Assembly (NCBI GenBank): GCA_964481835.1
Contig: CAYZTT010000013.1
Coordinates: 1 to 17,861, forward strand
From: Candidatus Woesearchaeota archaeon
GTDB lineage: Archaea > Nanobdellota > Nanobdellia > SCGC-AAA011-G17 > PNOQ01
Direction: 5' to 3'
Length of the DNA: 17,861 nt
Below the pieces are notes generated by a model, which did no database searches, was not told the DNA's origin, and saw only the letters and a list, made by a program, of their open reading frames with translations. The translations under genes were made by a program, and so were the position numbers. This document shows positions 235-13,161 of the stretch, piece after piece (the stretch's first letter is position 1; each line of letters starts with the position of its first letter).

Positions 235-411
235 ATGAATTTCATACCAAAAACCAGACAGATTATTATAGGGTGTGTAGCCCTTATCAACATGGCCATA
301 GCTTTAGGTTGGATTGCCGGGCAGATTGAAGCAGCTCACGCAACACCGCTGATATCAATGTCAATCGGGGGATTTTTAACTTTATTGAAAGGTGATTCCG
401 ATGAACAATGA
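235..411 (+). CDS. small hydrophobic protein (58 aa, about 2 predicted TM segments); holin-like is possible
   Basis: ATG at 235 is preceded by GGAGG at 227-231. The hydrophobic stretches are IIIGCVALINMAIALGWIAG and LISMSIGGFLTLL. Its stop overlaps the start of the next gene. Confidence 0.35.
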   Translation: MNFIPKTRQIIIGCVALINMAIALGWIAGQIEAAHATPLISMSIGGFLTLLKGDSDEQ

Positions 412-970
412 ACTCTATAAAATTGCTCTGGATGCATGTAAGCAAGTGTATAAGCATAATATAGACTTGGGTACTACGGAGTATATGTATTCCAGATCAG
501 AGTATTTAAATAAGCCATTACAGGTGATTGCTGTTGCCGGTACAAACGAGGGTTTGGATTGGGTTAAGAATTTAGATGTTCGTGATATACAAGGCATTAA
601 GAGGAGTGGTGTTACAGCTGCAAATGAAATGCTGGGGGATTTGAATTGGAAAAGGTGGATTGATCCAAATATTCCTATTTTAATTACAGGACATTCAAAA
701 GGAACCGCAACTGCGGTTGCTTATATGAAGCTTTATGGGGCTGATTATTGTGTTTTATTTAATCCTGTCCGGTGTTTAAGCAGATCCCGAGATAATACCA
801 TGAAAAATACCACAATGTTTCTTGACAAAGAGGATGTGGTATCAAAGTTAGCATGGTTAAGTTTTAAACTGCCAAAATGTAAAATAATTAAGAAACCCAG
901 AGATGCGAGACCATGGTGGGATATAAAAACAAATCACGGCTTATCCTCTTGGAATGAGATTATTGGATAA
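401..970 (+). CDS. lipase class 3 family alpha/beta hydrolase (compact, about 190 aa)
   Basis: Lipase_3-type motifs are present: VIAVAGTNEGLDWVKNLDV (like vaFRGT...nW..Dl) and the nucleophile elbow ITGHSKGTA (like GHSLGG). Downstream Asp (FLDKEDVV) and His (TNHGLSSW) are placed to complete a Ser-Asp-His triad. The likely start is ATG 401 inside the GTG-401 track call, with RBS AAAGGTGA. Confidence 0.55.
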   Translation: MNNELYKIALDACKQVYKHNIDLGTTEYMYSRSEYLNKPLQVIAVAGTNEGLDWVKNLDVRDIQGIKRSGVTAANEMLGDLNWKRWIDPNIPILITGHSKGTATAVAYMKLYGADYCVLFNPVRCLSRSRDNTMKNTTMFLDKEDVVSKLAWLSFKLPKCKIIKKPRDARPWWDIKTNHGLSSWNEIIG

Positions 971-4771: not shown

Positions 4772-5275
4772 ATGGCTGAAAATTCAATTATTGTAAGACA
4801 AGGACAGGCACAGAGAGTTGAGCTGGAGAAGATCCCAGCTGCTGCGTTTTATCCCGGTCATCTGGTGGAGTTAACCTCTGCTGATAGGGTGCAGAAGCAC
4901 AGTACCGCAGGGGGGAATATTACACCGGCTTTATTTGCTATTGAGGATGAGAATCAGGGAAAGGACATTGATGATGCTTTTGGTACATCAGGTCGTGCTG
5001 TCTGCTGGATTCCTCAGGCTGGAGATTGGGTCCTTGGTGTATTGGCTGACGGCGAAACCGTGGTTATTGGTGATAAACTGGAAAGTGGTGGTGATGGTAC
5101 ACTTAAGAAGCATGTTTCTGATACCGCAGACTCTGATGATCCCGTTACTGTTTACCCAAATCAGATTGTGGGGATTGCCATGGAAGCGTTGGACCTTTCT
5201 GATTCCAGTGGCGGAGAATCTGTAAACACATTTGATGGTGGATATGATCAACGTCTTTGGCTCATGATCGTGTAA
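4772..5275 (+). CDS. small capsid-associated protein (decoration/cement-like, DUF2190/gpD-like)
   Basis: A 167-aa protein immediately upstream of the major capsid gene, with a strong RBS AGGAGGAGG. Its size and position match the decoration proteins that pair with DUF2184 capsids. The C-terminus is Ser/Asp-rich. Confidence 0.4.
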   Translation: MAENSIIVRQGQAQRVELEKIPAAAFYPGHLVELTSADRVQKHSTAGGNITPALFAIEDENQGKDIDDAFGTSGRAVCWIPQAGDWVLGVLADGETVVIGDKLESGGDGTLKKHVSDTADSDDPVTVYPNQIVGIAMEALDLSDSSGGESVNTFDGGYDQRLWLMIV

Positions 5276-5315: not shown

Positions 5316-6401
5316 ATGGATATGGAAACAAATGTAACTTATGTTGATCCAGAGGGAGGTTCTTTTTCTGATCCTGAAATCGGGGCGAAGCTTTCAGGTG
5401 GTTTTAGTGTCAATCAACTGAGACCTTTTATTGTAAATGGAAAAGCTTATGTAAACAGACCCATTGATAACAAAGGCAATATGAAAGTTGTTCCTTTTGT
5501 TGCCAATAACGTGGTTCATAATGCTGTTCTTCAAAGGGATGAGTGGATTGAGATTGATCGTGTTGTTCAGAAAATTGCAAGGGAGAGGCTGGTTGGTGCA
5601 GCAGATCTCCTTACCAGAGGACTTACTTATAATTTAACCAATCCCATGGGAAAGACTGTTCTTGAATATCAGGACATGAATGATCCGGGAGAAGCAAACA
5701 TGGATATGGATGCTGCGACTCAGCACAAAAATGATAGACCAGTATTTGAAACCAAATACTTACCTATCCCGATTATCCATTCGGATTTTACCATTGCCCA
5801 GCGTGTTTTGGAAGCTTCCAGAACCCATGGTGACCCCATTGATACTACAATGGCAGAAGCCTGTACTCGCAGAGTTGCAGAGAAGGTTGAAGATATGATC
5901 TTTACCAATACCAGTTTTACTTATGGTGGTGGTTCTATCAGATCATATATATCTGATACTAATAAGAATACTGTAACACTGAGTACCAACTGGGATGCCA
6001 GCAGTAAAACCGGAGCACAGATTGTTGATGATGTTATTGCCATGAAACAGGCCATGATTGATGCCAAACACTATGGTCCTTTTGTAATGTACATTCCTAC
6101 CAGTTATGAGACAGTTCTGGATGATGATTATGTTTCTGGTTATCCAAAAACAATCAGGGAAAGAATACTGGAGATTTCTGGGGTAGACAGTATTAAAGTT
6201 GCTGACAGGCTCGCTGCCGATACTGTTGTTATGGTAGAAATGTCTTCCAGTACTGTTCGTCTGGTAAATGGATTTGCTCCTACTGTTCTTCAGTGGAGTA
6301 CACAGGGAGGTCTGATGCATCATTTTAAGGTAATGGCAATTCAGGTTCTTCAGATCAGAGCAGATCAGGATGGCAATAGCGGTCTCTGCGTATTGTCGTA
6401 A
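5316..6401 (+). CDS. major capsid protein (HK97 fold, DUF2184 / encapsulin-like family)
   Basis: A 361-aa protein in the capsid position with RBS AAGGAGG. Blocks such as EWIEIDRVVQKIARERLVGAADL, PIPIIHSDF, LEASR and DTTMAEACTRRVAEKVEDMIF match the conserved DUF2184 pattern as I remember it. Confidence 0.65.
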   Translation: MDMETNVTYVDPEGGSFSDPEIGAKLSGGFSVNQLRPFIVNGKAYVNRPIDNKGNMKVVPFVANNVVHNAVLQRDEWIEIDRVVQKIARERLVGAADLLTRGLTYNLTNPMGKTVLEYQDMNDPGEANMDMDAATQHKNDRPVFETKYLPIPIIHSDFTIAQRVLEASRTHGDPIDTTMAEACTRRVAEKVEDMIFTNTSFTYGGGSIRSYISDTNKNTVTLSTNWDASSKTGAQIVDDVIAMKQAMIDAKHYGPFVMYIPTSYETVLDDDYVSGYPKTIRERILEISGVDSIKVADRLAADTVVMVEMSSSTVRLVNGFAPTVLQWSTQGGLMHHFKVMAIQVLQIRADQDGNSGLCVLS

Positions 6402-6461: not shown

Positions 6462-6875
6462 ATGATAAGAAAAAGTAAAATTAAAGAAATTGAAAAAGGT
6501 GTTGAACGCCCCAGTAGACCTGAGAAATTTAAAGGAATGCTCCGTTATAAGAAAATCAGTGGTGGAGTGCATCGACATTCAAATGGGCAGATTGTAAGGA
6601 AAGGTGAAATCTTGTATGCCCATCCAGAAGAGCTGAGTCCTATTCTTGCTGTGGGTTTTAAATGTCTGGATGAGGCAATTAAAGAAGCACAGGGAATCCA
6701 ATTGGGCATTAAAGATCGTGGAAACGGTTGGTATGATGTTATTAATAAGAAAACAGGAGAAGTCCTTAATGACTCTGCCCTAAGAGCAAAAGATGCTCGG
6801 CAATTCATTACTGGGGATGAAGATGTTGTAACCCCGGAAGAAGTGGAAGAAGATTTTGAAGAAGATGAGGATTAA
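6462..6875 (+). CDS. hypothetical protein with a basic N-terminus and a highly acidic C-terminal tail (TPEEVEEDFEEDED)
   Basis: RBS AAGGAG 8 nt upstream of the start. It lies between the capsid gene and the modification cluster. I recognise no family. Confidence 0.5.
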   Translation: MIRKSKIKEIEKGVERPSRPEKFKGMLRYKKISGGVHRHSNGQIVRKGEILYAHPEELSPILAVGFKCLDEAIKEAQGIQLGIKDRGNGWYDVINKKTGEVLNDSALRAKDARQFITGDEDVVTPEEVEEDFEEDED

Positions 6876-6883
6876 AACTCCTT

Positions 6884-7636
6884 ATGAAATGGAAAGTTCC
6901 TAAAATATGGAAAGGGGAATGTTGGATTATAGGCGGAGGTTCCTCCGTTGCTGAACAATTTAACATTCCTGACACCCTTATCCCCGAATCCAAAGAAGAG
7001 TTTAGAGCTTTTGGAGACTATCTAACATATATTCACAAGAAAAGATGTATTGGTGTTAATGTTTCTGCTTTTTTGGGGGATTGGGTTGATGTAGCTTATT
7101 GGGGTGATTCCGATACATATACTGATTATAGGGCTTGGTTTGATCAATATGCTGGTTTAAAAATATCCAGTGCCGGTAAGTTTAGTGATGCTTCTTTTAA
7201 AGAAATAAAACATCTCTACAAAAGTCTAAGTGGGGGTTTAACAAAACGTAAAAATCAAGTATCTTGGGTTTGTAAAAACTCAGGTGCAAGTGCGATTGAC
7301 TTAGCTCATAAATTGGGGGCTACTGTTATTTATGTACTTGGCATTGATATGTATCTCCATCCTGAAAAAAGGATTCATTGGCACAAAGGATACCCCGACA
7401 AAACAAAAACCCCAACGATGAAACAATTAAAGCAAGGCAAGAAACATCCCAGAAGGATTGTCTCTAAAAAGTCTCAGGAGAATCTTTTTAAAAAACAACT
7501 ACAGGGCTGGAGCCGAATTGCTAAAGATTGCGAAGCAAAAGGGATAAAAGTAATAAATGTAAATCCCAAAAGTAGAGTTGATGTGTTTCCTAAAATGTCT
7601 TTAAAGGAGATTATTGAGTCTGATGAAGAGGTTTAA
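6884..7636 (+). CDS. DUF115 (MptE / Maf 'motility accessory factor'-like) protein; putative nucleotide-sugar or nonulosonate transferase
   Basis: The N-terminal motif ECWIIGGGSSV resembles the GxGPSL motif of DUF115. The core KNSGASAIDLAHKLGATVIYVLGIDMY matches the DUF115 consensus nGGSvanaAlnLAvllGakkIvLiGqDla. Confidence 0.5.
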   Translation: MKWKVPKIWKGECWIIGGGSSVAEQFNIPDTLIPESKEEFRAFGDYLTYIHKKRCIGVNVSAFLGDWVDVAYWGDSDTYTDYRAWFDQYAGLKISSAGKFSDASFKEIKHLYKSLSGGLTKRKNQVSWVCKNSGASAIDLAHKLGATVIYVLGIDMYLHPEKRIHWHKGYPDKTKTPTMKQLKQGKKHPRRIVSKKSQENLFKKQLQGWSRIAKDCEAKGIKVINVNPKSRVDVFPKMSLKEIIESDEEV

Positions 7637-8120
7637 TTGGCTAGATAAGCAAATCAAAAAAAGAAAGATCTCAATCATGTGCCAAGTAGGTACCGGAAAA
7701 GGACGAACTTCTGGGTATATATTAAACCACAATCCCCAGTTAATCTTACATGAGGTTGCCTATTGCCCCGATGATGGTTCTGGTCAATCTTCTTTTTTTG
7801 AGCATCGAAGGGTTTGGAAGAGAAGGGTTTCCCCTTTCTTAGATCGTATTAAAGTTCACGAATTAAAAAGCGAAGAAGCTCATCGAAACATCGAAGACCA
7901 TTTTTTTGATTGTGTTTTTATAGATGCAGATCCTTCTTATGAAATGTGTTTATTGGATATTCAAAATTGGTATCCCAAAGTAAAAAAGGGGGGATTGATT
8001 TGTGGTCATGATTTTGATCATCCTCGTTTTCCCGGAGTAAGAAAAGCTGTAGAAGAGTTTTTTAAAGACTCCTTTGTAGATGCTTCCAGACATGATTGGA
8101 TATGGTGGGCAAAAGTATGA
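7623..8120 (+). CDS. class I SAM-dependent methyltransferase (Methyltransf_24 / TylF-CmcI-like)
   Basis: Motif I is QVGTGKG. The VFIDADPSYE motif is characteristic of the Methyltransf_24 family. The track calls a start at TTG 7614; the in-frame ATG 7623 is more likely. It overlaps the upstream gene. Confidence 0.6.
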   Translation: MKRFNWLDKQIKKRKISIMCQVGTGKGRTSGYILNHNPQLILHEVAYCPDDGSGQSSFFEHRRVWKRRVSPFLDRIKVHELKSEEAHRNIEDHFFDCVFIDADPSYEMCLLDIQNWYPKVKKGGLICGHDFDHPRFPGVRKAVEEFFKDSFVDASRHDWIWWAKV

Positions 8121-8695
8121 AACTCGATAAGCAAATACTTGTATTGCCAAAGGAAAAATATCTCTTCTTTTTGAGTTCTAAATGTGCTTCTTCCTCTGTA
8201 CGCAGAATGGCAATATTTGATCTGAAGTACGGAGAACCTCTAATCTATATAACCAATTTAAAAGCCCTGCAAATGTATATGGATTTTAAATGGATAATGA
8301 TTGTTAGATCTCCTTGGGATAGGATAAGAAGTCTTTGGAAAGATAAAGTATTTAGGCACGTACATAAGGAGTTCCGCAGCCTTGGATTTACGAGAGGTGA
8401 ATCTTTTTCTGAATTTGGGAAGAGGTTTCATGGTATTTCGGATCTTTTAAAATGTGGCAGTCATTTATGGCCTATGTTTACTTTGTTTCCTTATTTTGAA
8501 AAAGGAAGAAATACTCTTTTACTCGATTTAAAAGATTTAAGAAAATGGCCTATAGAGTTGCCTTTCTTGAGGAAAGAGAATCAGTCAAAGATAATTGTTC
8601 CAGAAGAAAAAGGAAAGCTTGGATCTCGTCAATCTAAGATCTTAAGAGAAAAGTATATTATGGATTTTGATCATTATGATTCCTTCAACTCCTAA
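8117..8695 (+). CDS. sulfotransferase, Sulfotransfer_2 (carbohydrate sulfotransferase)-like
   Basis: The 3'-PB motif IVRSPWDRIRSLWKDK matches vRdPfeRlvSaf. The N-terminal PKEKYLFFLSSKCASSSV resembles the 5'-PSB PKxGS/TT loop. The ATG at 8117 overlaps the upstream TGA (ATGA), so the track's 8096 start is probably too far upstream. Confidence 0.5.
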   Translation: MKLDKQILVLPKEKYLFFLSSKCASSSVRRMAIFDLKYGEPLIYITNLKALQMYMDFKWIMIVRSPWDRIRSLWKDKVFRHVHKEFRSLGFTRGESFSEFGKRFHGISDLLKCGSHLWPMFTLFPYFEKGRNTLLLDLKDLRKWPIELPFLRKENQSKIIVPEEKGKLGSRQSKILREKYIMDFDHYDSFNS

Positions 8696-9344
8696 ATATA
8701 AAGAAGTTACCGTTGCCTGTGTTTTGTGGGTTGGCGATTTTCGCAAGCGAGGGTATACTGCATTGTGGGTGCAGAGGTTAAAGAATATGGTGGAAAAGAG
8801 TCTTTCTATTCCACATAACTTTATTTGCCTTTCTAATGTTAATATCCCAGATGTAAATTGTATTCCTTTAAAACATGATTATCCCGGATGGTGGTCTAAA
8901 ATTGAATTGTTTAGAAATGATATTCCGGGGGATCGTGTGTTGTCCTTAGACTTGGATTTAATTCTTTTGAAGGACATTGCCCCTTTTATTGAAATAGATA
9001 CCCCTATGGCGATCTGTAGGGCTTTTGGGAAGCCTTCTATGGGAAGAGGTACTATCCATGGATATAATTCATCTGTTATGGTCTTTGATAAGGGAGAGGG
9101 AGGTGAATTATATTCAAGTTTTGGTGAATACGCAATGAGGAGATTTAGGGGGGATCAGGATTATATTAAATTTGATATACCCTATCTTCCTACTTTTCCA
9201 AAAGGGTGGGTAATAAAAATAAGACAATGCATAGCTGGGAGAAAATGTGTTCCCGGAAGGGATGTTAAAATTCTCTTGTGTATGCCTTACAAAAACGATG
9301 TGGCTATAAGAAAGTTTCCTTGGGTGGGAGAGATATGGAAGTAA
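8676..9344 (+). CDS. GT-A-fold DxD glycosyltransferase-like protein (GT8-like), paralog 1
   Basis: The motif WWSKIELF...DRVLSLDLDLILLKDIAPF resembles the GT8 Y.RL...d..kvlYLD.D.lv.dl..L motif. It is paralogous to the next gene (VTVACVLWVGDF / VNIICLYWRGKD; LDLDLIL / CDLDVVI). The likely start is ATG 8676 inside the TTG-8667 call. Confidence 0.4.
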   Translation: MIPSTPKYKEVTVACVLWVGDFRKRGYTALWVQRLKNMVEKSLSIPHNFICLSNVNIPDVNCIPLKHDYPGWWSKIELFRNDIPGDRVLSLDLDLILLKDIAPFIEIDTPMAICRAFGKPSMGRGTIHGYNSSVMVFDKGEGGELYSSFGEYAMRRFRGDQDYIKFDIPYLPTFPKGWVIKIRQCIAGRKCVPGRDVKILLCMPYKNDVAIRKFPWVGEIWK

Positions 9345-10021
9345 AACCTGTAAATATCATTTGTTTATATTGGAGAGGCAAAGACAGGCCGGGATGGGAA
9401 GATACCTTTTTAGGAATGGAATATGTATTTAAGCTCTATAAAGGTTTTGAAAGAAACTGTACAATTCCGTTTAAATTCTTTTGTTTAATTGAGAATGTTC
9501 CTACTTTTACTTTTCCGGGTATTAAATTTCTCAAGTTAGATTCCCCAAGCTGGAGAGGTTGTTTGCCTAAATATTCAGTTTTTAATCCTTCTTACAATTT
9601 TAAGGGAAGGGTCTTTGTATGCGATTTGGATGTAGTAATTACTGGAAATGTAGATGATATTTTATCTTATGATGGAGAGTTTGCTACAAGGAGCACCTTT
9701 AGAGGTAAAAAAGAATCTGGGGGAGATTTGGTTGCTTTTGAGGGGGGAACATATCAATGGATTTGGGATGAGTTTAAAAACGAAACCCAACGGGTGGTTG
9801 ATTTTACAAAAGGACGAGAACGCTGGGTATACCGATATGATAGACGTATGAGAAAGCTTAAGTTCTTACAGGATTTGTTTCCAGATCAAATTTACAGTTA
9901 TAAAAATCATTGTAACAGAGGAAGGGGTCTTCCTGAAAATGCAAGAATGGTATCTTGCCATGGAAATCCCAGACCCCATGAAATCAGAGATGATTGGGTA
10001 AAAGAGCACTGGAGATTATAA
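9335..10021 (+). CDS. GT-A-fold DxD glycosyltransferase-like protein, paralog 2
   Basis: The DxD block GRVFVCDLDVVITGNVDDI is collinear with the upstream paralog. The likely start is ATG 9335 inside the GTG-9278 call, with GGGAG 4 nt upstream. Its TAA stop overlaps the ATG of the next gene (TAATG). Confidence 0.4.
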   Translation: MEVKPVNIICLYWRGKDRPGWEDTFLGMEYVFKLYKGFERNCTIPFKFFCLIENVPTFTFPGIKFLKLDSPSWRGCLPKYSVFNPSYNFKGRVFVCDLDVVITGNVDDILSYDGEFATRSTFRGKKESGGDLVAFEGGTYQWIWDEFKNETQRVVDFTKGRERWVYRYDRRMRKLKFLQDLFPDQIYSYKNHCNRGRGLPENARMVSCHGNPRPHEIRDDWVKEHWRL

Positions 10022-10383
10022 TGGTTTATCTTATTACCGGAAAATCAAATGCTGGAAAAACAACATTGGCTTATAAAATGGCAATCGAGAATGGGGGTAT
10101 TGTTATTGATGCTGATGAAGTTAGAAAGATATTCCCTTCTGATTTTTCCGATAATGGCAGAGAAGAGCATATAGTCCGTATGGCAAAAATGGCAGCCTTA
10201 TTGGAAGCTCAGCAAATTGTATACATTGCAGCTATTATGCCAAAAAAAGAATGGAGAGATTTGGCTCGTTCTTATTTTAAAGATTCAGTTTTGATTTATT
10301 TAAAAGGGGGTGTTCTTTGGGAGGGTACTGAATATGAAGAACCCCAAAAACAAGAGTTAGAAAGGAAATCTAATCATGATTAA
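10021..10383 (+). CDS. APS-kinase (CysC)-like P-loop kinase, compact form lacking the lid segment
   Basis: The P-loop is ITGKSNAGKTTLA. IDADEVRK followed by FSDNGREEHIVRMAKMAALLEAQQIVYIAAIMPKKEWR aligns residue-for-residue in pattern with CysC LDGDNVRHGL...[39 protein letters not shown]. C-terminal TEYEEPQKQEL resembles DPYEAPENPEL. The approximately 25-aa RDPKGLYKKAR lid is absent. The start at ATG 10021 forms TAATG with the upstream stop, and GGAGA lies 5 nt upstream. Confidence 0.55.
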   Translation: MVYLITGKSNAGKTTLAYKMAIENGGIVIDADEVRKIFPSDFSDNGREEHIVRMAKMAALLEAQQIVYIAAIMPKKEWRDLARSYFKDSVLIYLKGGVLWEGTEYEEPQKQELERKSNHD

Positions 10384-11092
10384 AGACTACTCAGAGAAAC
10401 CGATTATTATTGTAGGGGCTGCAAGATCCGGTACCAGTATGGTTGCAGCCTGTGTTCATTTATGTGGAGCTTGGAAGGGGGATACCGCAGGACCAAACCG
10501 ATATAACCAAAAAGGAATGTTTGAGAATTTGGAATTGAGGGAGAAGATAATCAAACCTTTATTACATGCTATGAATGCAGATAAAAAAGGTCAATTTCCC
10601 TTACCGGAAACAAAAGATATTATTATTCCTCATGATATTAAAGATTCTATCTTTAAAATAGTAAAAGGACAGGGCTGGACTCCTGATCTTCCATGGATGT
10701 GGAAATGTGCTAAAATGTCTCTGATGTGGCCTGTTTGGAATTATGCTTTTCCAGATAGTAAATGGATTATTGTAAGGAGAAAGACTCCGGATATTATCAA
10801 TTCTTGTATGAAAACAGGATTTATGAACGCATATGCTATTCCCAGAATTCAGAAAAAGGCAGGAGTATCCAGTGAAAAAGAAGGTTGGTTGCAGTGGGTA
10901 CGTAAGCATGAAGAAAAGTTCATAGAGATTATTCAAAGTGGTGTAAATGTTAAAGTTATATGGCCTGAAAGGATGATCAACTCGGATTATAGTCAACTTC
11001 AGGAAACAATTGAATGGTTAGGGTTGACTTGGGACCCCAAAAAGGTTTATGATTTCATTGAACCAAAACTCTGGAAAGCAAGGAGGGGATAA
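10376..11092 (+). CDS. sulfotransferase, Sulfotransfer_1/3-like (PAPS-dependent)
   Basis: The 5'-PSB motif PIIIVGAARSGTSMV is classic (IvGapRSGTT). The 3'-PB motif is WIIVRRKTPDIINS (vRdPrDvavS). The ATG overlaps the upstream stop (ATGATTAA). Confidence 0.6.
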   Translation: MIKDYSEKPIIIVGAARSGTSMVAACVHLCGAWKGDTAGPNRYNQKGMFENLELREKIIKPLLHAMNADKKGQFPLPETKDIIIPHDIKDSIFKIVKGQGWTPDLPWMWKCAKMSLMWPVWNYAFPDSKWIIVRRKTPDIINSCMKTGFMNAYAIPRIQKKAGVSSEKEGWLQWVRKHEEKFIEIIQSGVNVKVIWPERMINSDYSQLQETIEWLGLTWDPKKVYDFIEPKLWKARRG

Positions 11093-11454
11093 TGGCAAGA
11101 ACAACCGCAGCAGAGGTACAGCAGATTATTGATACAGAAGTCAGTACAACCATTATAGATGTTATGATTACCCCAGCAAACTTAGTTGTTACGTCTGAAT
11201 TAGGAGGAGAACTTTCTTCTGCTCTTCTTACTGAGATTGAAAAATGGCTTGCTGCACATCTAATAAAAATGTCATGGGAAAAAGATAAAGAAAGTGTTAA
11301 AATAGGAGAAGCAGAGGAGAAATACGCAAAGCTTGGTTTAAATCTGGATGGTAGTACATATGGGCAAACTGTGAAACTATTGGATACTACGGGTAAATTG
11401 GCTAATTTAGGAAAGAAAGAGGCTTCTATTACAGCAGTGGAATCTTTCGAATAG
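11092..11454 (+). CDS. head-tail connector / adaptor protein (gp6-like)
   Basis: A 120-aa protein in the first position after the head genes. The N-terminal pattern TAAEVQQII...EIEKWLAAHLI resembles gp6-like connector proteins. It is joined to the upstream gene by TAATG coupling. Confidence 0.5.
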   Translation: MARTTAAEVQQIIDTEVSTTIIDVMITPANLVVTSELGGELSSALLTEIEKWLAAHLIKMSWEKDKESVKIGEAEEKYAKLGLNLDGSTYGQTVKLLDTTGKLANLGKKEASITAVESFE

Positions 11455-12735: not shown

Positions 12736-13161
12736 ATGACAACAAATGCAGAATCGGGTGTAGGATCATTAATGCGATACTATACTGGGGCAGCTTGGGC
12801 TTCTCTTGGAGAAGTTACCAACATAACTGGACCCGGTATGTCCAGAGATACCCATGACGTTACCAGCTTGGCAAGTACCAACGGTTACAGGGAGTTTATT
12901 CCGGGCTTGAGAGATCCCGGTGCCTTGACCTTTACTATGTGGTTTAATCGAACAGATTATGATGCCATGAAGACATTGTTTGAGTCTGATACAATTACTG
13001 ACTTTGAATTGATATTGGACGATACTGAAAATACTACACTGGAGTTCAGTGGTTTTGTTACAGAAATGCCTTTAACTGTTCCAGATGGTCCCATAGCATG
13101 TGAGGTTACAATAAAGATTTCCGGTACTGTTACCGTTAATAGTGGGAGTGGAAGTGGATAA
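12736..13161 (+). CDS. major tail (tube) protein
   Basis: Strong RBS AAGGAGG. A 141-aa protein placed directly before the G/GT chaperone pair and the tape measure gene. It carries the motifs DVTSLASTNGYREFIPGLRDPGALTF. Confidence 0.55.
   Translation: MTTNAESGVGSLMRYYTGAAWASLGEVTNITGPGMSRDTHDVTSLASTNGYREFIPGLRDPGALTFTMWFNRTDYDAMKTLFESDTITDFELILDDTENTTLEFSGFVTEMPLTVPDGPIACEVTIKISGTVTVNSGSGSG

What the first reader, a model, noticed from the sequence alone, without database searches (positions are those of the whole stretch)
6884..11092. Seven-gene glycosylation, methylation and sulfation cassette embedded in the virion morphogenesis operon
Seven tightly overlapping + strand genes sit between the major capsid gene and the head-tail adaptor gene, and are translationally coupled into the late structural operon. 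They encode a DUF115/Maf-like transferase, a SAM methyltransferase, a Sulfotransfer_2-like sulfotransferase, two paralogous DxD GT-A glycosyltransferase-like proteins, an APS-kinase-like P-loop kinase and a second sulfotransferase from a different family. None of the seven proteins has a predicted TM segment, and the cassette contains no flippase, polymerase or undecaprenyl-phosphate transferase. That argues against a cell-surface polysaccharide island and for modification of a cytoplasmic substrate made at the same time, most plausibly capsid, decoration or other virion proteins (O-glycan, then methylated and sulfated). I am not aware of a described phage virion sulfation pathway that brings its own PAPS supply, so this would be previously undescribed. 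The identities are motif-level calls from reading the sequence, not search results.
Basis: partly seen in the sequence, partly recalled or inferred. Interest (0 to 1): 0.92.

Follow-up and report, generated by a model that had tools for sequence, protein, structure and literature searches.

The report
Phage head-gene glycan and sulfation cassette
An uncultured tailed phage carries, in the middle of its head and tail assembly genes, seven soluble enzymes for adding sugars, methyl groups and sulfate. The same layout recurs in hundreds of related uncultured phages, which suggests that these viruses coat their own particles with sulfated sugars, something not yet described for any phage.

Summary

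- **c2** is a SAM methyltransferase.
- **c3** belongs to a family in which 37 of 37 members match Sulfotransfer_2.
- **c4 and c5** are weakly paralogous glycosyltransferase-like proteins.
- **c6** is a 120-aa lid-less APS-kinase homologue.
- **c7** has a sulfotransferase fold, with both PAPS-binding motifs invariant.

The window is one member of a large uncultured siphophage lineage: at least 275 IMG/VR contigs and more than 1,100 c7 protein clusters. In that lineage c1 always follows the capsid gene and c7 almost always precedes the adaptor gene. The 0-8 kb between them is a hypervariable set of sugar-modifying genes.

The c1+c7 pair also occurs alone, and at two other positions inside head and neck modules. 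One of these is a prophage of a cultured bacterium. The mini APS kinase sits directly next to c7 in 23 of 82 loci.

The best reading is cytoplasmic glycosylation and sulfation of virion proteins. This is inferred, not shown, and the acceptor is unknown. It is a new variant of phage virion glycosylation.

The parts
5316..6401 (+). Major capsid protein. It marks the upstream boundary and is a candidate acceptor, but is not part of the cassette.
   Evidence: Pfam DUF6260 at 9e-21 and Linocin_M18 at 9e-12. PHROG virion structural / major head protein. 34% identical to the annotated capsid protein of Brevundimonas phage MaInes.
6462..6875 (+). g137, a small protein with a basic N-terminus and an acidic tail. 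Its function is unknown. It is conserved between the capsid gene and c1.
   Evidence: No Pfam, PHROG or NCBIfam match. Homologues sit in the same place in most related loci. In L018 it lies between two c1-like genes.
6884..7636 (+). c1, a Maf/GT42-like (DUF115/MptE-like fold) transferase. It is the conserved first gene of the cassette and the proposed initiating protein glycosyltransferase.
7623..8120 (+). c2, a class I SAM-dependent methyltransferase.
   Evidence: Pfam Methyltransf_24 at 2.2e-11, 45 bits against a cut-off of 26.3. PHROG 2675 at 1e-16.
8117..8695 (+). c3, a Sulfotransfer_2-type (carbohydrate-type) sulfotransferase. It is an accessory gene.
   Evidence: On its own it scores 17.1 bits against a cut-off of 22. 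All 37 family members match Sulfotransfer_2, best E 4e-22. R64, P66 and R69 are invariant, and K22, S72 and H116 are nearly invariant.
8676..9344 (+). c4, a glycosyltransferase-like protein with a DLD motif.
   Evidence: PHROG 1962 glycosyltransferase at 1.1e-18. Weak Glyco_transf_8 match, E 0.16. Paralogous to c5, E 2e-6.
9335..10021 (+). c5, a glycosyltransferase-like protein with a DLD motif.
   Evidence: PHROG 1962 at 1.9e-21. Distant relatives in isolated phages include P1 PmgQ/HdmD and an annotated glycosyltransferase of Tetraselmis viridis virus S20.
10021..10383 (+). c6, a 120-aa lid-less APS-kinase homologue and the proposed PAPS supplier. It is an accessory gene.
   Evidence: Pfam APS_kinase at 3.6e-12, 47 bits against 21.1. 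The PDB sequence hits are all APS kinases. The lid and C-terminal helix are deleted, while the P-loop, D-x-D, two Arg and Pro are conserved. NCBIfam apsK scores 45 bits against a cut-off of 138.7. It lies directly next to c7 in 23 of 82 loci. It is a clean 350-nt indel relative to L030.
10376..11092 (+). c7, a Sulfotransfer_3-type sulfotransferase. It is the conserved last gene of the cassette.
   Evidence: Pfam 25 bits against a cut-off of 27. More than 1,154 homologous clusters, many with a precomputed PF13469 hit. The 5'-PSB and 3'-PB motifs are invariant. AlphaFold2 pLDDT 93. Foldseek hits are almost all sulfotransferases. The adaptor gene lies within 700 nt downstream in 71 of 78 loci.
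11092..11454 (+). g120, a putative head-tail adaptor. It marks the downstream boundary.
   Evidence: It is the first of four small genes before the tail terminator. A homologue has a weak Pfam E217_gp27 hit. There is no direct match for the window protein.

Best explanation
The cassette is a virion-modification island, transcribed and translated together with the head and connector genes. Its conserved core is a pair: c1, a small Maf/GT42-like transferase, and c7, a PAPS-dependent sulfotransferase.

The proposed pathway, all of it inferred, runs as follows.
1. In the cytoplasm, c1 attaches a first sugar to Ser/Thr of a structural protein made at the same time. Candidates are the capsid, decoration, g137 or tail tube proteins. 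The donor would be a host nucleotide sugar, possibly a CMP-activated acidic sugar.
2. The variable middle genes extend and tailor the glycan. In this phage these are the glycosyltransferase-like c4 and c5, the methyltransferase c2 and a second, carbohydrate-type sulfotransferase, c3.
3. c7 adds the conserved sulfate.
4. Where present, the minimal APS kinase c6 converts host APS to PAPS, so the donor does not run out late in infection or in hosts that make little PAPS.

The result would be a negatively charged, strain-variable sulfated glycan coat on the particle.

What is shown: the enzyme families and folds, the soluble nature of the proteins, the operon embedding, the lineage-wide synteny, the c1-c7 and c6-c7 linkages and the module swapping. 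What is inferred: the virion acceptor, the order of steps, the donor sugars and the biological role of the coat (shielding, adhesion or host range).
For: **Enzyme identities.**

**Operon embedding.** The cassette has overlapping start and stop codons and no internal terminator-like site. No protein has a TM segment.

**Lineage-wide synteny.** 275 IMG/VR contigs encode c7. Among 82 non-redundant loci, c1 directly follows the capsid region in 31 of 31, and c7 directly precedes the adaptor gene in 71 of 78. The capsid-to-adaptor span ranges from 1.9 to 9.9 kb.

**The c1+c7 pair is a unit tied to head and neck genes.**
- It occurs alone in L063.
- It is inserted as a unit after the adaptor gene in L058, L062 and L088.
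- It lies between MuF and the protease of a prophage with a different capsid family, in the cultured Euryhalocaulis caribicus JL2009.
- That makes three insertion points, all inside head or neck modules.

**Variable middles carry glycan-building genes.** These include GT2 and DXD glycosyltransferases, radical SAM enzymes, methyltransferases, UDP-glucose dehydrogenase with a cupin, further Sulfotransfer_2 genes, and a >9 kb sugar-synthesis island in L016. Close relatives swap non-homologous middle modules between conserved flanks.

**A parallel in a third capsid lineage.** A Maf-like, glycosyltransferase and methyltransferase cassette occupies the same capsid-to-head-closure position in Tetraselmis viridis virus S20, which has an HK97-type capsid protein.

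**Absence in the nearest cultured relative.** Brevundimonas phage MaInes, which has the closest capsid protein among isolated phages in this collection, has no such genes at this junction.

**Precedents.**
- Maf, the closest structure to c1, is annotated as a Maf glycosyltransferase. From my own knowledge, it is a cytoplasmic protein O-glycosyltransferase acting on flagellin.
- Mycobacteriophage-encoded glycosyltransferases, with an O-methyltransferase in cluster O phages, glycosylate capsid and tail tube subunits (Freeman et al. 2023, as cited in PMC11600133 and PMC12619734).
Against: - There is no direct evidence for any acceptor. The Ser-rich motif in the decoration protein (LSDSSGxE) and the SGSGSG tail of the tail tube protein are only suggestive. 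A similar decoration motif exists in the cassette-less phage MaInes, and two cassette-bearing loci lack the tail tube tail.
- Glycosyltransferases that act on lipid-linked or soluble substrates often lack TM segments too.
- The c1 fold also resembles pyrophosphokinases such as MptE and thiamine pyrophosphokinases, so a non-glycosyltransferase chemistry is possible.
- c6 lacks the APS-kinase lid.
- No ATP sulfurylase was seen in the annotated cassettes, so any PAPS supply still depends on host APS.
- In the mycobacteriophage precedent, the glycosyltransferase genes of cluster F1 phages lie near the 3' end of the genome, not in the structural operon. Gene position is therefore not a rule for this function.
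Confidence: 0.5

Rival explanations
1. c7 is a protein tyrosine sulfotransferase. It would sulfate Tyr residues of a virion or other phage protein directly, and glycosylation by c1 and the variable genes would be a parallel decoration rather than a prerequisite.
For: Tick and human tyrosylprotein sulfotransferases (TPST1 and TPST2) make up most of the top Foldseek hits for c7, at E 1.6e-4 to 1e-3 and TM about 0.5. c7's 5'-PSB motif RSGTS resembles that of TPSTs (my own knowledge). c7 is kept even where no glycosyltransferase other than c1 is present (L063, L023).
Against: Stf1, a bacterial sulfotransferase (3rnl) and CurM-ST score as well as the TPSTs (E about 1e-4), and Stf9 only slightly worse (5e-4), so the fold does not discriminate between substrates. 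c7 always travels with c1, including when the pair moves as a unit. That is more easily explained if c7 acts on c1's product. I found no conserved acidic Tyr motif shared by all the virion proteins.
Confidence: 0.15
2. The cassette modifies a host glycoconjugate late in infection. Targets could be LPS or capsule precursors on the cytoplasmic face, or another cell-envelope or secreted molecule. The purpose might be to destroy or mask receptors so that progeny are not lost on debris, or to change the lysogen's surface.
For: Phage glycosyltransferases that change host serotype are well known (Markine-Goriaynoff et al. 2004, cited in PMC12619734). Peripheral glycosyltransferases acting on lipid-linked acceptors need no TM segment (my own knowledge). 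The hypervariable gene content resembles O-antigen loci.
Against: No flippase, polymerase or initiating transferase appears in the window or in the related cassettes I annotated. The hosts span G+C of 31-66% and therefore very different envelopes, yet c1 and c7 stay conserved. The pair inserts only within head and neck gene blocks, at three different points. The closest structure to c1 is a protein glycosyltransferase.
Confidence: 0.15
3. These are auxiliary metabolic genes for host sulfur metabolism (cysC-like plus sulfotransferases), or genes for a sulfated small molecule. Viromic surveys usually annotate such genes this way.
For: Viral sulfotransferase and cysC genes are routinely listed as auxiliary metabolic genes (PMC8290583, PMC13172472). 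c6 matches APS_kinase.
Against: Assimilation does not need sulfotransferases, glycosyltransferases or a Maf-like enzyme. The genes are fixed inside the morphogenesis operon rather than in variable moron regions. c6 is the dispensable member and c7 the conserved one. c6 is far below the CysC equivalog threshold.
Confidence: 0.07
4. The cassette hypermodifies the phage DNA with a glycan (possibly methylated or sulfated) just before or during packaging.
For: Phage glycosyltransferases that build diverse glycans on 5hmC are known (bioRxiv 10.1101/2023.12.21.572611). c2's best PHROG family is labelled 'DNA methyltransferase'. The genes are co-expressed with the packaging and head genes.
Against: The defining partners of that pathway, a C5 cytosine methyltransferase and a 5mYOX/TET dioxygenase, are absent from the cassette. 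Pfam places c2 in Methyltransf_24, not in a DNA methylase family. The term 'sulf' does not occur in that paper. Only 18-20 kb of the genome is available, so genes elsewhere cannot be excluded.
Confidence: 0.05

Closest known systems
Mycobacteriophage virion glycosylation (Che8, Corndog and other cluster O phages; Freeman et al. 2023, Cell Host Microbe 31:1216)
   Same: Phage-encoded soluble glycosyltransferases, with an O-methyltransferase in cluster O, decorate the phage's own capsid and tail tube subunits in the cytoplasm (as cited in PMC11600133, PMC12619734 and PMC11256854).
   Different: Those papers mention no sulfotransferase, APS kinase or Maf-like enzyme. The cluster F1 genes lie near the 3' end of the genome, not in the head-tail junction. 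The hosts are Actinobacteria. The primary paper was not held, so I could not read its details. Here the modification is inferred, not measured.
Maf flagellin glycosyltransferases (PDB 5mu5) and GT42 sialyltransferases (Cst-I/II)
   Different: c1 is 250 aa against 632 aa for Maf, and lacks Maf's flanking domains. It gets no Pfam PF01973 hit of its own. Its donor and acceptor are unknown. The same fold includes pyrophosphokinases.
APS kinase (CysC; Pfam PF01583, TIGR00455)
   Same: c6 has the P-loop, the D-x-D motif, two Arg, the Pro motif and the C-terminal Y-E-x-P motif. Its only PDB sequence matches are APS kinases.
   Different: About 25 lid residues and the C-terminal helix are missing, giving 120 aa against about 175-200. 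It scores 45 bits against the 138.7-bit equivalog cut-off. It forms its own short family of 120-131 aa.
Chlorovirus PBCV-1 capsid glycosylation by virus-encoded cytoplasmic glycosyltransferases
   Same: A virus encodes its own machinery to glycosylate its major capsid protein outside any host secretory pathway. From my own knowledge, this includes methylation of the sugars. [quoted passage not shown]
   Different: PBCV-1 is a eukaryotic giant virus. I know of no sulfation there, and the enzymes are unrelated by sequence as far as I tested.
Capsid-to-head-closure cassette of 'Tetraselmis viridis virus S20' (NC_020840)
   Same: It has the same architecture: capsid gene, small ORF, then two Maf-like genes, three to four glycosyltransferases and three methyltransferases, then head closure, tail terminator and tail tube genes.
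   Different: It has no sulfotransferase or APS kinase, and its capsid protein is HK97-type (PF05065). I found no publication on its function in the library.

Membership tests
PAPS-dependent sulfotransferase, Sulfotransfer_3 type (c7) | Profile match at or above the Pfam gathering score | tested here: inconclusive
   The window protein scores 25.0 bits against a cut-off of 27. Many homologues carry a precomputed PF13469 hit. The L023 homologue scores 38.4 bits.
PAPS-dependent sulfotransferase, Sulfotransfer_3 type (c7) | 5'-phosphosulfate-binding loop (R/K-S-G-T-S/T) and 3'-phosphate-binding motif (R...S) | tested here: met
   R17, S18, G19, T20, S21, R134, R135 and S143 are invariant across 38 sequences. 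Assigning these residues to the two motifs rests on my knowledge of the family.
PAPS-dependent sulfotransferase, Sulfotransfer_3 type (c7) | Sulfotransferase fold | tested here: met
   The AlphaFold2 model has pLDDT 93. All 17 Foldseek hits with E of 1e-3 or better are sulfotransferases, with TM about 0.4-0.55.
PAPS-dependent sulfotransferase, Sulfotransfer_3 type (c7) | Sulfuryl transfer from PAPS to an acceptor | not testable with these tools
   This needs a biochemical assay.
Sulfotransfer_2, carbohydrate-type sulfotransferase (c3) | Profile match at or above the gathering score | tested here: inconclusive
   The window protein scores 17.1 bits against a cut-off of 22. All 37 of 37 family members match at E of 0.01 or better, best 4.2e-22.
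Sulfotransfer_2, carbohydrate-type sulfotransferase (c3) | Lys of the 5'-PSB loop, the R-x-P-x-x-R-x-x-S 3'-PB motif and a candidate catalytic His | tested here: met
   R64, P66 and R69 are invariant. K22, S72 and H116 are nearly invariant.
APS kinase (c6) | Pfam APS_kinase domain above the gathering score, and closest solved relatives are APS kinases | tested here: met
   47 bits against 21.1. All 14 PDB sequence hits are APS kinases or PAPS synthase kinase domains.
APS kinase (c6) | Equivalog-level match to CysC (TIGR00455) | tested here: not met
   45.1 bits against a cut-off of 138.7.
APS kinase (c6) | Mobile lid segment (K-G-L-Y...F-T-G) covering the active site | tested here: not met
   About 25 residues are deleted, leaving P-G-G-x-L-W-x-G-T-x-Y-E-x-P. 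The C-terminal helix is absent as well.
APS kinase (c6) | Core catalytic and APS-binding residues (P-loop, D-x-D, two Arg, Pro) | tested here: met
Maf / GT42-like glycosyltransferase (c1) | Fold of the Maf central domain or of GT42 enzymes | tested here: met
Maf / GT42-like glycosyltransferase (c1) | Pfam PF01973 (MptE-like / DUF115) match | tested here: not met
   The window protein has no hit. One of 32 homologues carries PF01973. The L023 and TvV-S20 homologues hit weakly, below the cut-off.
Maf / GT42-like glycosyltransferase (c1) | Flanking substrate-binding domains of full-length Maf | tested here: not met
Phage virion glycosylation system | Glycan covalently attached to virion proteins | not testable with these tools
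   This needs mass spectrometry of virions. Only sequence motifs in candidate acceptors were examined, and these were inconclusive.
Cell-surface polysaccharide (O-antigen or capsule) gene cluster | Flippase or ABC transporter, polymerase, and initiating phosphoglycosyl transferase, all membrane proteins | tested here: not met
   No TM-like segment. No such Pfam, PHROG or NCBIfam hit in the window or in the annotated relatives.
Phage DNA glycan hypermodification pathway | C5 cytosine methyltransferase and 5mYOX/TET dioxygenase next to the glycosyltransferase | tested here: not met
   Neither domain is present in the cassette. The pathway definition comes from bioRxiv 10.1101/2023.12.21.572611. 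The rest of the genome has not been seen.

The most novel reading that the evidence does not exclude
A large, globally distributed and entirely uncultured lineage of tailed phages, infecting hosts of very different G+C content, coats its virions with sulfated glycans. The glycans would be strain-variable and in some members uronic-acid-containing, and so glycosaminoglycan-like. A mobile two-gene core would make them: a Maf-like protein glycosyltransferase and a dedicated sulfotransferase. The core is often backed by a minimal, lid-less APS kinase that supplies PAPS. This would be the first sulfation of a prokaryotic virus particle. It would also mean that many viral 'sulfotransferase' and 'cysC' genes listed as auxiliary metabolic genes in viromes are virion-tailoring genes.
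Probability: 0.4. Interest if true: 0.9.

Novelty: new variant of a known kind. Interest (0 to 1): 0.75.

Why it matters
Sulfate esters are the hallmark of animal and algal extracellular matrices and are rare in bacteria. I found no report of sulfation for any phage particle.

A sulfated, variable glycan coat would change virion charge and its adhesion to mucus, algal surfaces or particles. It could also affect recognition by antibodies or grazers, and perhaps host range.

The finding also gives a concrete alternative reading for viral sulfotransferase and cysC genes, which viromics papers currently count as sulfur-cycle auxiliary metabolic genes.

It defines a very small APS-kinase scaffold of 120 aa, and a sulfotransferase family with more than 1,100 clusters (90% identity) and no characterised member.

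The c1+c7 prophage in the cultured Euryhalocaulis caribicus JL2009 makes the hypothesis experimentally testable.

Tried and rejected
- **Close DNA relatives.** Megablast of the whole window against isolated phages found nothing.
- **c7 and c6 in isolated phages.** tblastn with c7 found no match. c6 gave only two weak hits.
- **PDB by sequence.** Sequence-only searches were uninformative for c7, both as a single sequence and as a profile. They were only marginal for c1, so fold comparison was needed.
- **NCBIfam.** It names none of the proteins except c6, and c6 falls below the cut-off.
- **Adaptor identity of g120.** I tried to confirm it by Pfam and by a PDB profile search, with no result.
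- **Acceptor.** I looked for one by comparing the C-termini and Ser/Thr/Tyr motifs of the decoration, capsid, g137, tail tube, g120 and g118 proteins across loci, and against the cassette-less phage MaInes. The decoration LSDSSG motif and the tail tube SGSGSG tail are suggestive but not specific to cassette-bearing phages. I dropped this as evidence.
- **Promoter and terminator scan.** Counts equal the shuffled expectation. I used the scan only for the absence of internal terminators.
- **Literature.** Searches for phage virion sulfation, for Maf in phages and for TvV-S20 returned nothing relevant. The key precedent paper, PMC10527164, is not held.
- **Host.** I could not assign a host for the window's phage. 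The c7-bearing MAG contigs carry labels from many phyla, including an archaeon, and are probably mis-binned phage contigs.
- **Rejected readings.** I considered and rejected a cell-surface polysaccharide island, a DNA hypermodification cluster and a sulfur-assimilation gene set, for the reasons given under the rival explanations.

Full report
**1. What is in the window**

The 17.9-kb window is a colinear siphovirus-type morphogenesis module on the + strand. In order it encodes:
- a lipase-like ORF
- the portal
- a MuF-like head protein
- a protease/scaffold protein
- a decoration protein
- the major capsid protein (5316-6401)
- a 137-aa ORF of unknown function
- seven enzyme genes
- four small connector genes, the last a tail terminator
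- the tail tube protein and two chaperone ORFs
- the tape measure protein and distal tail proteins

It has no close DNA relative among 50,697 phage records.

The seven genes overlap one another and the next gene by 1-20 nt. No terminator-like site lies between them, and their G+C is close to that of the flanks. None has a hydrophobic stretch compatible with a TM helix.

**2. What the seven proteins are**

- **c1 (6884-7636).** It has no Pfam hit, but matches PHROG 4603, labelled 'alpha-2,3-sialyltransferase' (4e-25).
  - An AlphaFold2 model built on 31 homologues has pLDDT 95.
  - By Foldseek its only significant PDB match is the Maf glycosyltransferase of Magnetospirillum.
- **c2 (7623-8120).** A Methyltransf_24 SAM methyltransferase.
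- **c3 (8117-8695).** Alone it scores below the Sulfotransfer_2 threshold. An exhaustive search found 39 relatives, and all 37 that I aligned match Sulfotransfer_2, best E 4e-22. The PAPS-binding Lys, the R-x-P-x-x-R-x-x-S motif and a His are invariant or nearly so.
- **c4 and c5.** Both match the PHROG glycosyltransferase family 1962 and are weak paralogues of each other. I did not test their GT-A fold.
- **c6 (10021-10383).** It passes the Pfam APS_kinase threshold, and its only PDB sequence matches are APS kinases.
  - It belongs to a short family of 120-131 aa in which the lid (about 25 residues) and the C-terminal helix are deleted, while the P-loop, D-x-D, two Arg and Pro are kept.
  - It is far below the CysC equivalog score.
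- **c7 (10376-11092).** It scores 25 bits against 27 for Sulfotransfer_3.
  - It belongs to a family of more than 1,154 clusters at 90% identity. The best 120 are all at least 52% identical, and only one of them carries any name beyond 'hypothetical protein', a MAG label.
  - The motifs R-S-G-T-S and R-R...S are invariant.
  - Its model (pLDDT 93) matches sulfotransferases almost exclusively: Stf1, 3rnl, tick and human tyrosylprotein sulfotransferases, CurM-ST, Stf9 and Stf0.

**3. The cassette is a lineage-wide feature with a conserved core**

Searching IMG/VR with the c7 profile gave 275 contigs, of which 80 were fetched. Further loci came from earlier IMG/VR scans, exact-protein look-ups and species-representative genomes. 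I annotated all of them with HMMs of c1, c3, c6 and c7 and with the window's structural proteins.

Among 82 non-redundant loci with a strong c7:
- The adaptor-like gene lies within 700 nt downstream of c7, or of c7 plus the mini kinase, in 71 of 78 testable loci.
- c1 lies within 1.1 kb after the capsid gene in all 31 loci that span both.
- The capsid-to-adaptor span ranges from 1.9 to 9.9 kb, with a median of 4.9 kb. The window's span is 4.7 kb.
- G+C ranges from 0.31 to 0.66, so the lineage infects very different hosts.

The smallest version, L063, holds only c1 and c7, overlapping by 4 nt. In L058, L062 and L088 the c1+c7 pair sits as a unit after the adaptor gene instead.

In the cultured alphaproteobacterium Euryhalocaulis caribicus JL2009, a prophage with a different capsid family (PF09950) carries an overlapping pair between MuF and the protease. 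The c1-like gene scores E 4e-19 against the c1 HMM. The c7-like gene scores E 3e-52 against the c7 HMM and 38 bits against Sulfotransfer_3, above the cut-off.

So c1 and c7 are genetically linked, they move together, and every insertion point found lies inside a head or neck gene block.

**4. The middle is hypervariable and glycan-related**

Between c1 and c7, different phages carry:
- GT2 and DXD glycosyltransferases
- radical SAM enzymes
- several methyltransferase types
- UDP-glucose dehydrogenase plus a cupin
- additional Sulfotransfer_2 genes
- multidomain fusions of 800-1,000 aa; in L014 and L017 these begin with c1
- in one case, more than 9 kb of sugar-synthesis genes: an alcohol dehydrogenase, a PfkB kinase, DUF268, split transketolase-like genes and a short-chain dehydrogenase

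Three close relatives (L009, L011 and L012) share 75-84% DNA identity over 4 kb on the left and 1.8 kb on the right. Between those flanks they carry non-homologous inserts of 0.5, 0.7 and 1.6 kb.

The window's nearest relative, L030, is colinear except for a clean 350-nt indel that is exactly c6.

The mini APS kinase is directly adjacent to c7 in 23 of 82 loci: 9 upstream and 14 downstream. It occurs elsewhere in the locus in only one. This supports a functional link to the sulfotransferase, and it also shows that the kinase is optional.

**5. Comparison with isolated phages**

Brevundimonas phage MaInes has the closest capsid protein among isolated phages in the collection (34% identity). It has only small connector-sized genes after its capsid gene.

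'Tetraselmis viridis virus S20', a Caudoviricetes genome with an HK97-type capsid protein, has two Maf-like genes, three to four glycosyltransferases and three methyltransferases at the same capsid-to-head-closure position. It has no sulfotransferase.

No isolated phage in the collection encodes a c7 relative.

**6. Mechanism**

I favour modification of virion proteins, for five reasons.
- The genes are soluble, translationally coupled to head and connector genes, and insert only there.
- The nearest structural relative of the conserved first enzyme is Maf, which from my own knowledge O-glycosylates a protein in the cytoplasm.
- The variable content is what one expects for a glycan under diversifying selection.
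- None of the membrane machinery needed to export a polysaccharide is present.
- There is a direct precedent. Mycobacteriophage-encoded glycosyltransferases, and an O-methyltransferase in cluster O, modify capsid and tail tube subunits (Freeman et al. 2023, as cited).

The sulfation arm (c7 always, c3-like enzymes sometimes, a PAPS-forming kinase often) has no precedent that I could find.

Everything about the acceptor, the donor sugars and the order of steps is inference. My search for an acceptor signature was inconclusive.

**7. Rivals**

- **Direct tyrosine sulfation by c7.** The fold matches allow it, but the strict c1-c7 linkage makes it less likely.
- **Action on a host envelope glycoconjugate.** This cannot be excluded, but it fits poorly with conservation across hosts of G+C 31-66% and with the insertion sites.
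- **Sulfur-metabolism auxiliary metabolic genes.** This is the usual label in viromics. It does not explain the glycosyltransferases, the Maf-like enzyme or the fixed position.
- **DNA glycan hypermodification.** The cassette lacks that pathway's defining methyltransferase and dioxygenase pair.

**8. Verdict**

It is best filed as a new variant of phage virion glycosylation. The additions are sulfation, a minimal APS kinase, and a characteristic position in the morphogenesis operon.

My confidence in the virion-modification mechanism is about 0.5. Confidence that the cassette performs PAPS-dependent sulfation of some glycoconjugate or protein is higher.

Noticed in passing
window 392-970 (+): A lipase/esterase-like ORF sits directly upstream of the portal gene, where a terminase would be expected. 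It matches PHROG 21992 at 4e-8 and hits Pfam Lipase_3 weakly around a G-H-S-K-G motif. The window and scaffold start too close to this point to see the terminase.
   Followed up: no
window 6462-6875 (+); L018 3062-3355: g137 is a small protein with a basic N-terminus and a strongly acidic C-terminal tail. It is conserved between the capsid gene and c1 and matches no database family. In L018 it lies between two c1-like genes, so it may belong to the cassette, for example as an acceptor or carrier.
   Followed up: partly
window 12736-13161 (+) and 4772-5275 (+): The tail tube protein ends in a Ser/Gly tail (VNSGSGSG) that most relatives share, though L006 and L007 lack it. The decoration protein carries a conserved L-S-D/G-S-S-G-x-E motif near its C-terminus. 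Both are possible O-glycosylation sites, by analogy with the C-terminal glycans of mycobacteriophages, but they are not specific to cassette-bearing phages.
   Followed up: partly
L023 6433-8331 (Euryhalocaulis caribicus JL2009 prophage): The portal protein (Phage_portal_3, 1.5e-110) carries a C-terminal Acb1 anti-CBASS phosphodiesterase domain (PF23474, 2e-34). This looks like a portal fused to an anti-defence enzyme, which could deliver that enzyme with the virion.
   Followed up: no
L028 8951-15220 (Tetraselmis viridis virus S20, NC_020840 26950-33219): A deposited Caudoviricetes genome, attributed to an algal host, has a cassette of two Maf-like genes, several glycosyltransferases and three methyltransferases between its HK97-type capsid gene and the head closure gene. 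Most of it is annotated as hypothetical, and I found no paper on its function in the library.
   Followed up: partly
phage P1, P7, SJ46 and RCS47 records (hits H40-H49): The c5-type glycosyltransferase-like protein has distant homologues (26% identity, E 1e-6 to 4e-7) in P1-family phages. There they are annotated PmgQ ('putative morphogenetic function') or HdmD.
   Followed up: no
L016 1-9650 (JGI 3300010413, 107-kb contig, G+C 0.66): One relative carries more than 9 kb of sugar-synthesis genes upstream of the mini APS kinase and c7. They include an alcohol dehydrogenase, a PfkB kinase, DUF268, transketolase-like N-terminal and pyrimidine-binding halves as separate genes, a short-chain dehydrogenase, and an 807-aa fusion of methyltransferase and Glyco_transf_9 domains. 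This suggests an unusual branched or higher-carbon sugar.
   Followed up: no
L007 1476-3192: One cassette combines UDP-glucose dehydrogenase, a cupin, a GT2, a Sulfotransfer_2, the mini APS kinase and c7. That is the gene set expected for a sulfated, uronic-acid-containing (glycosaminoglycan-like) glycan.
   Followed up: no
L014 6307-9246; L017 6945-10007; L009 7753-9264: In several relatives c1 is the N-terminal domain of a 500-1,020-aa multidomain protein that also contains methyltransferase and c4/c5-like glycosyltransferase regions. In those phages the pathway is fused into a single polypeptide.
   Followed up: partly
L018, L055, L071, L089, L093, L094, L101, L103: Eight loci carry two c7 paralogues, usually each preceded by a c4/c5-like glycosyltransferase. 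This suggests duplication of a glycosyltransferase-sulfotransferase unit, and more than one sulfation step.
   Followed up: no
L018-L022 (genome-contig hits): Phage contigs bearing c7 are binned into MAGs labelled Bathyarchaeia, Deltaproteobacteria, Firmicutes, Gammaproteobacteria and Syntrophobacteraceae. These are probably mis-binned phage contigs, so the labels should not be read as hosts.
   Followed up: no
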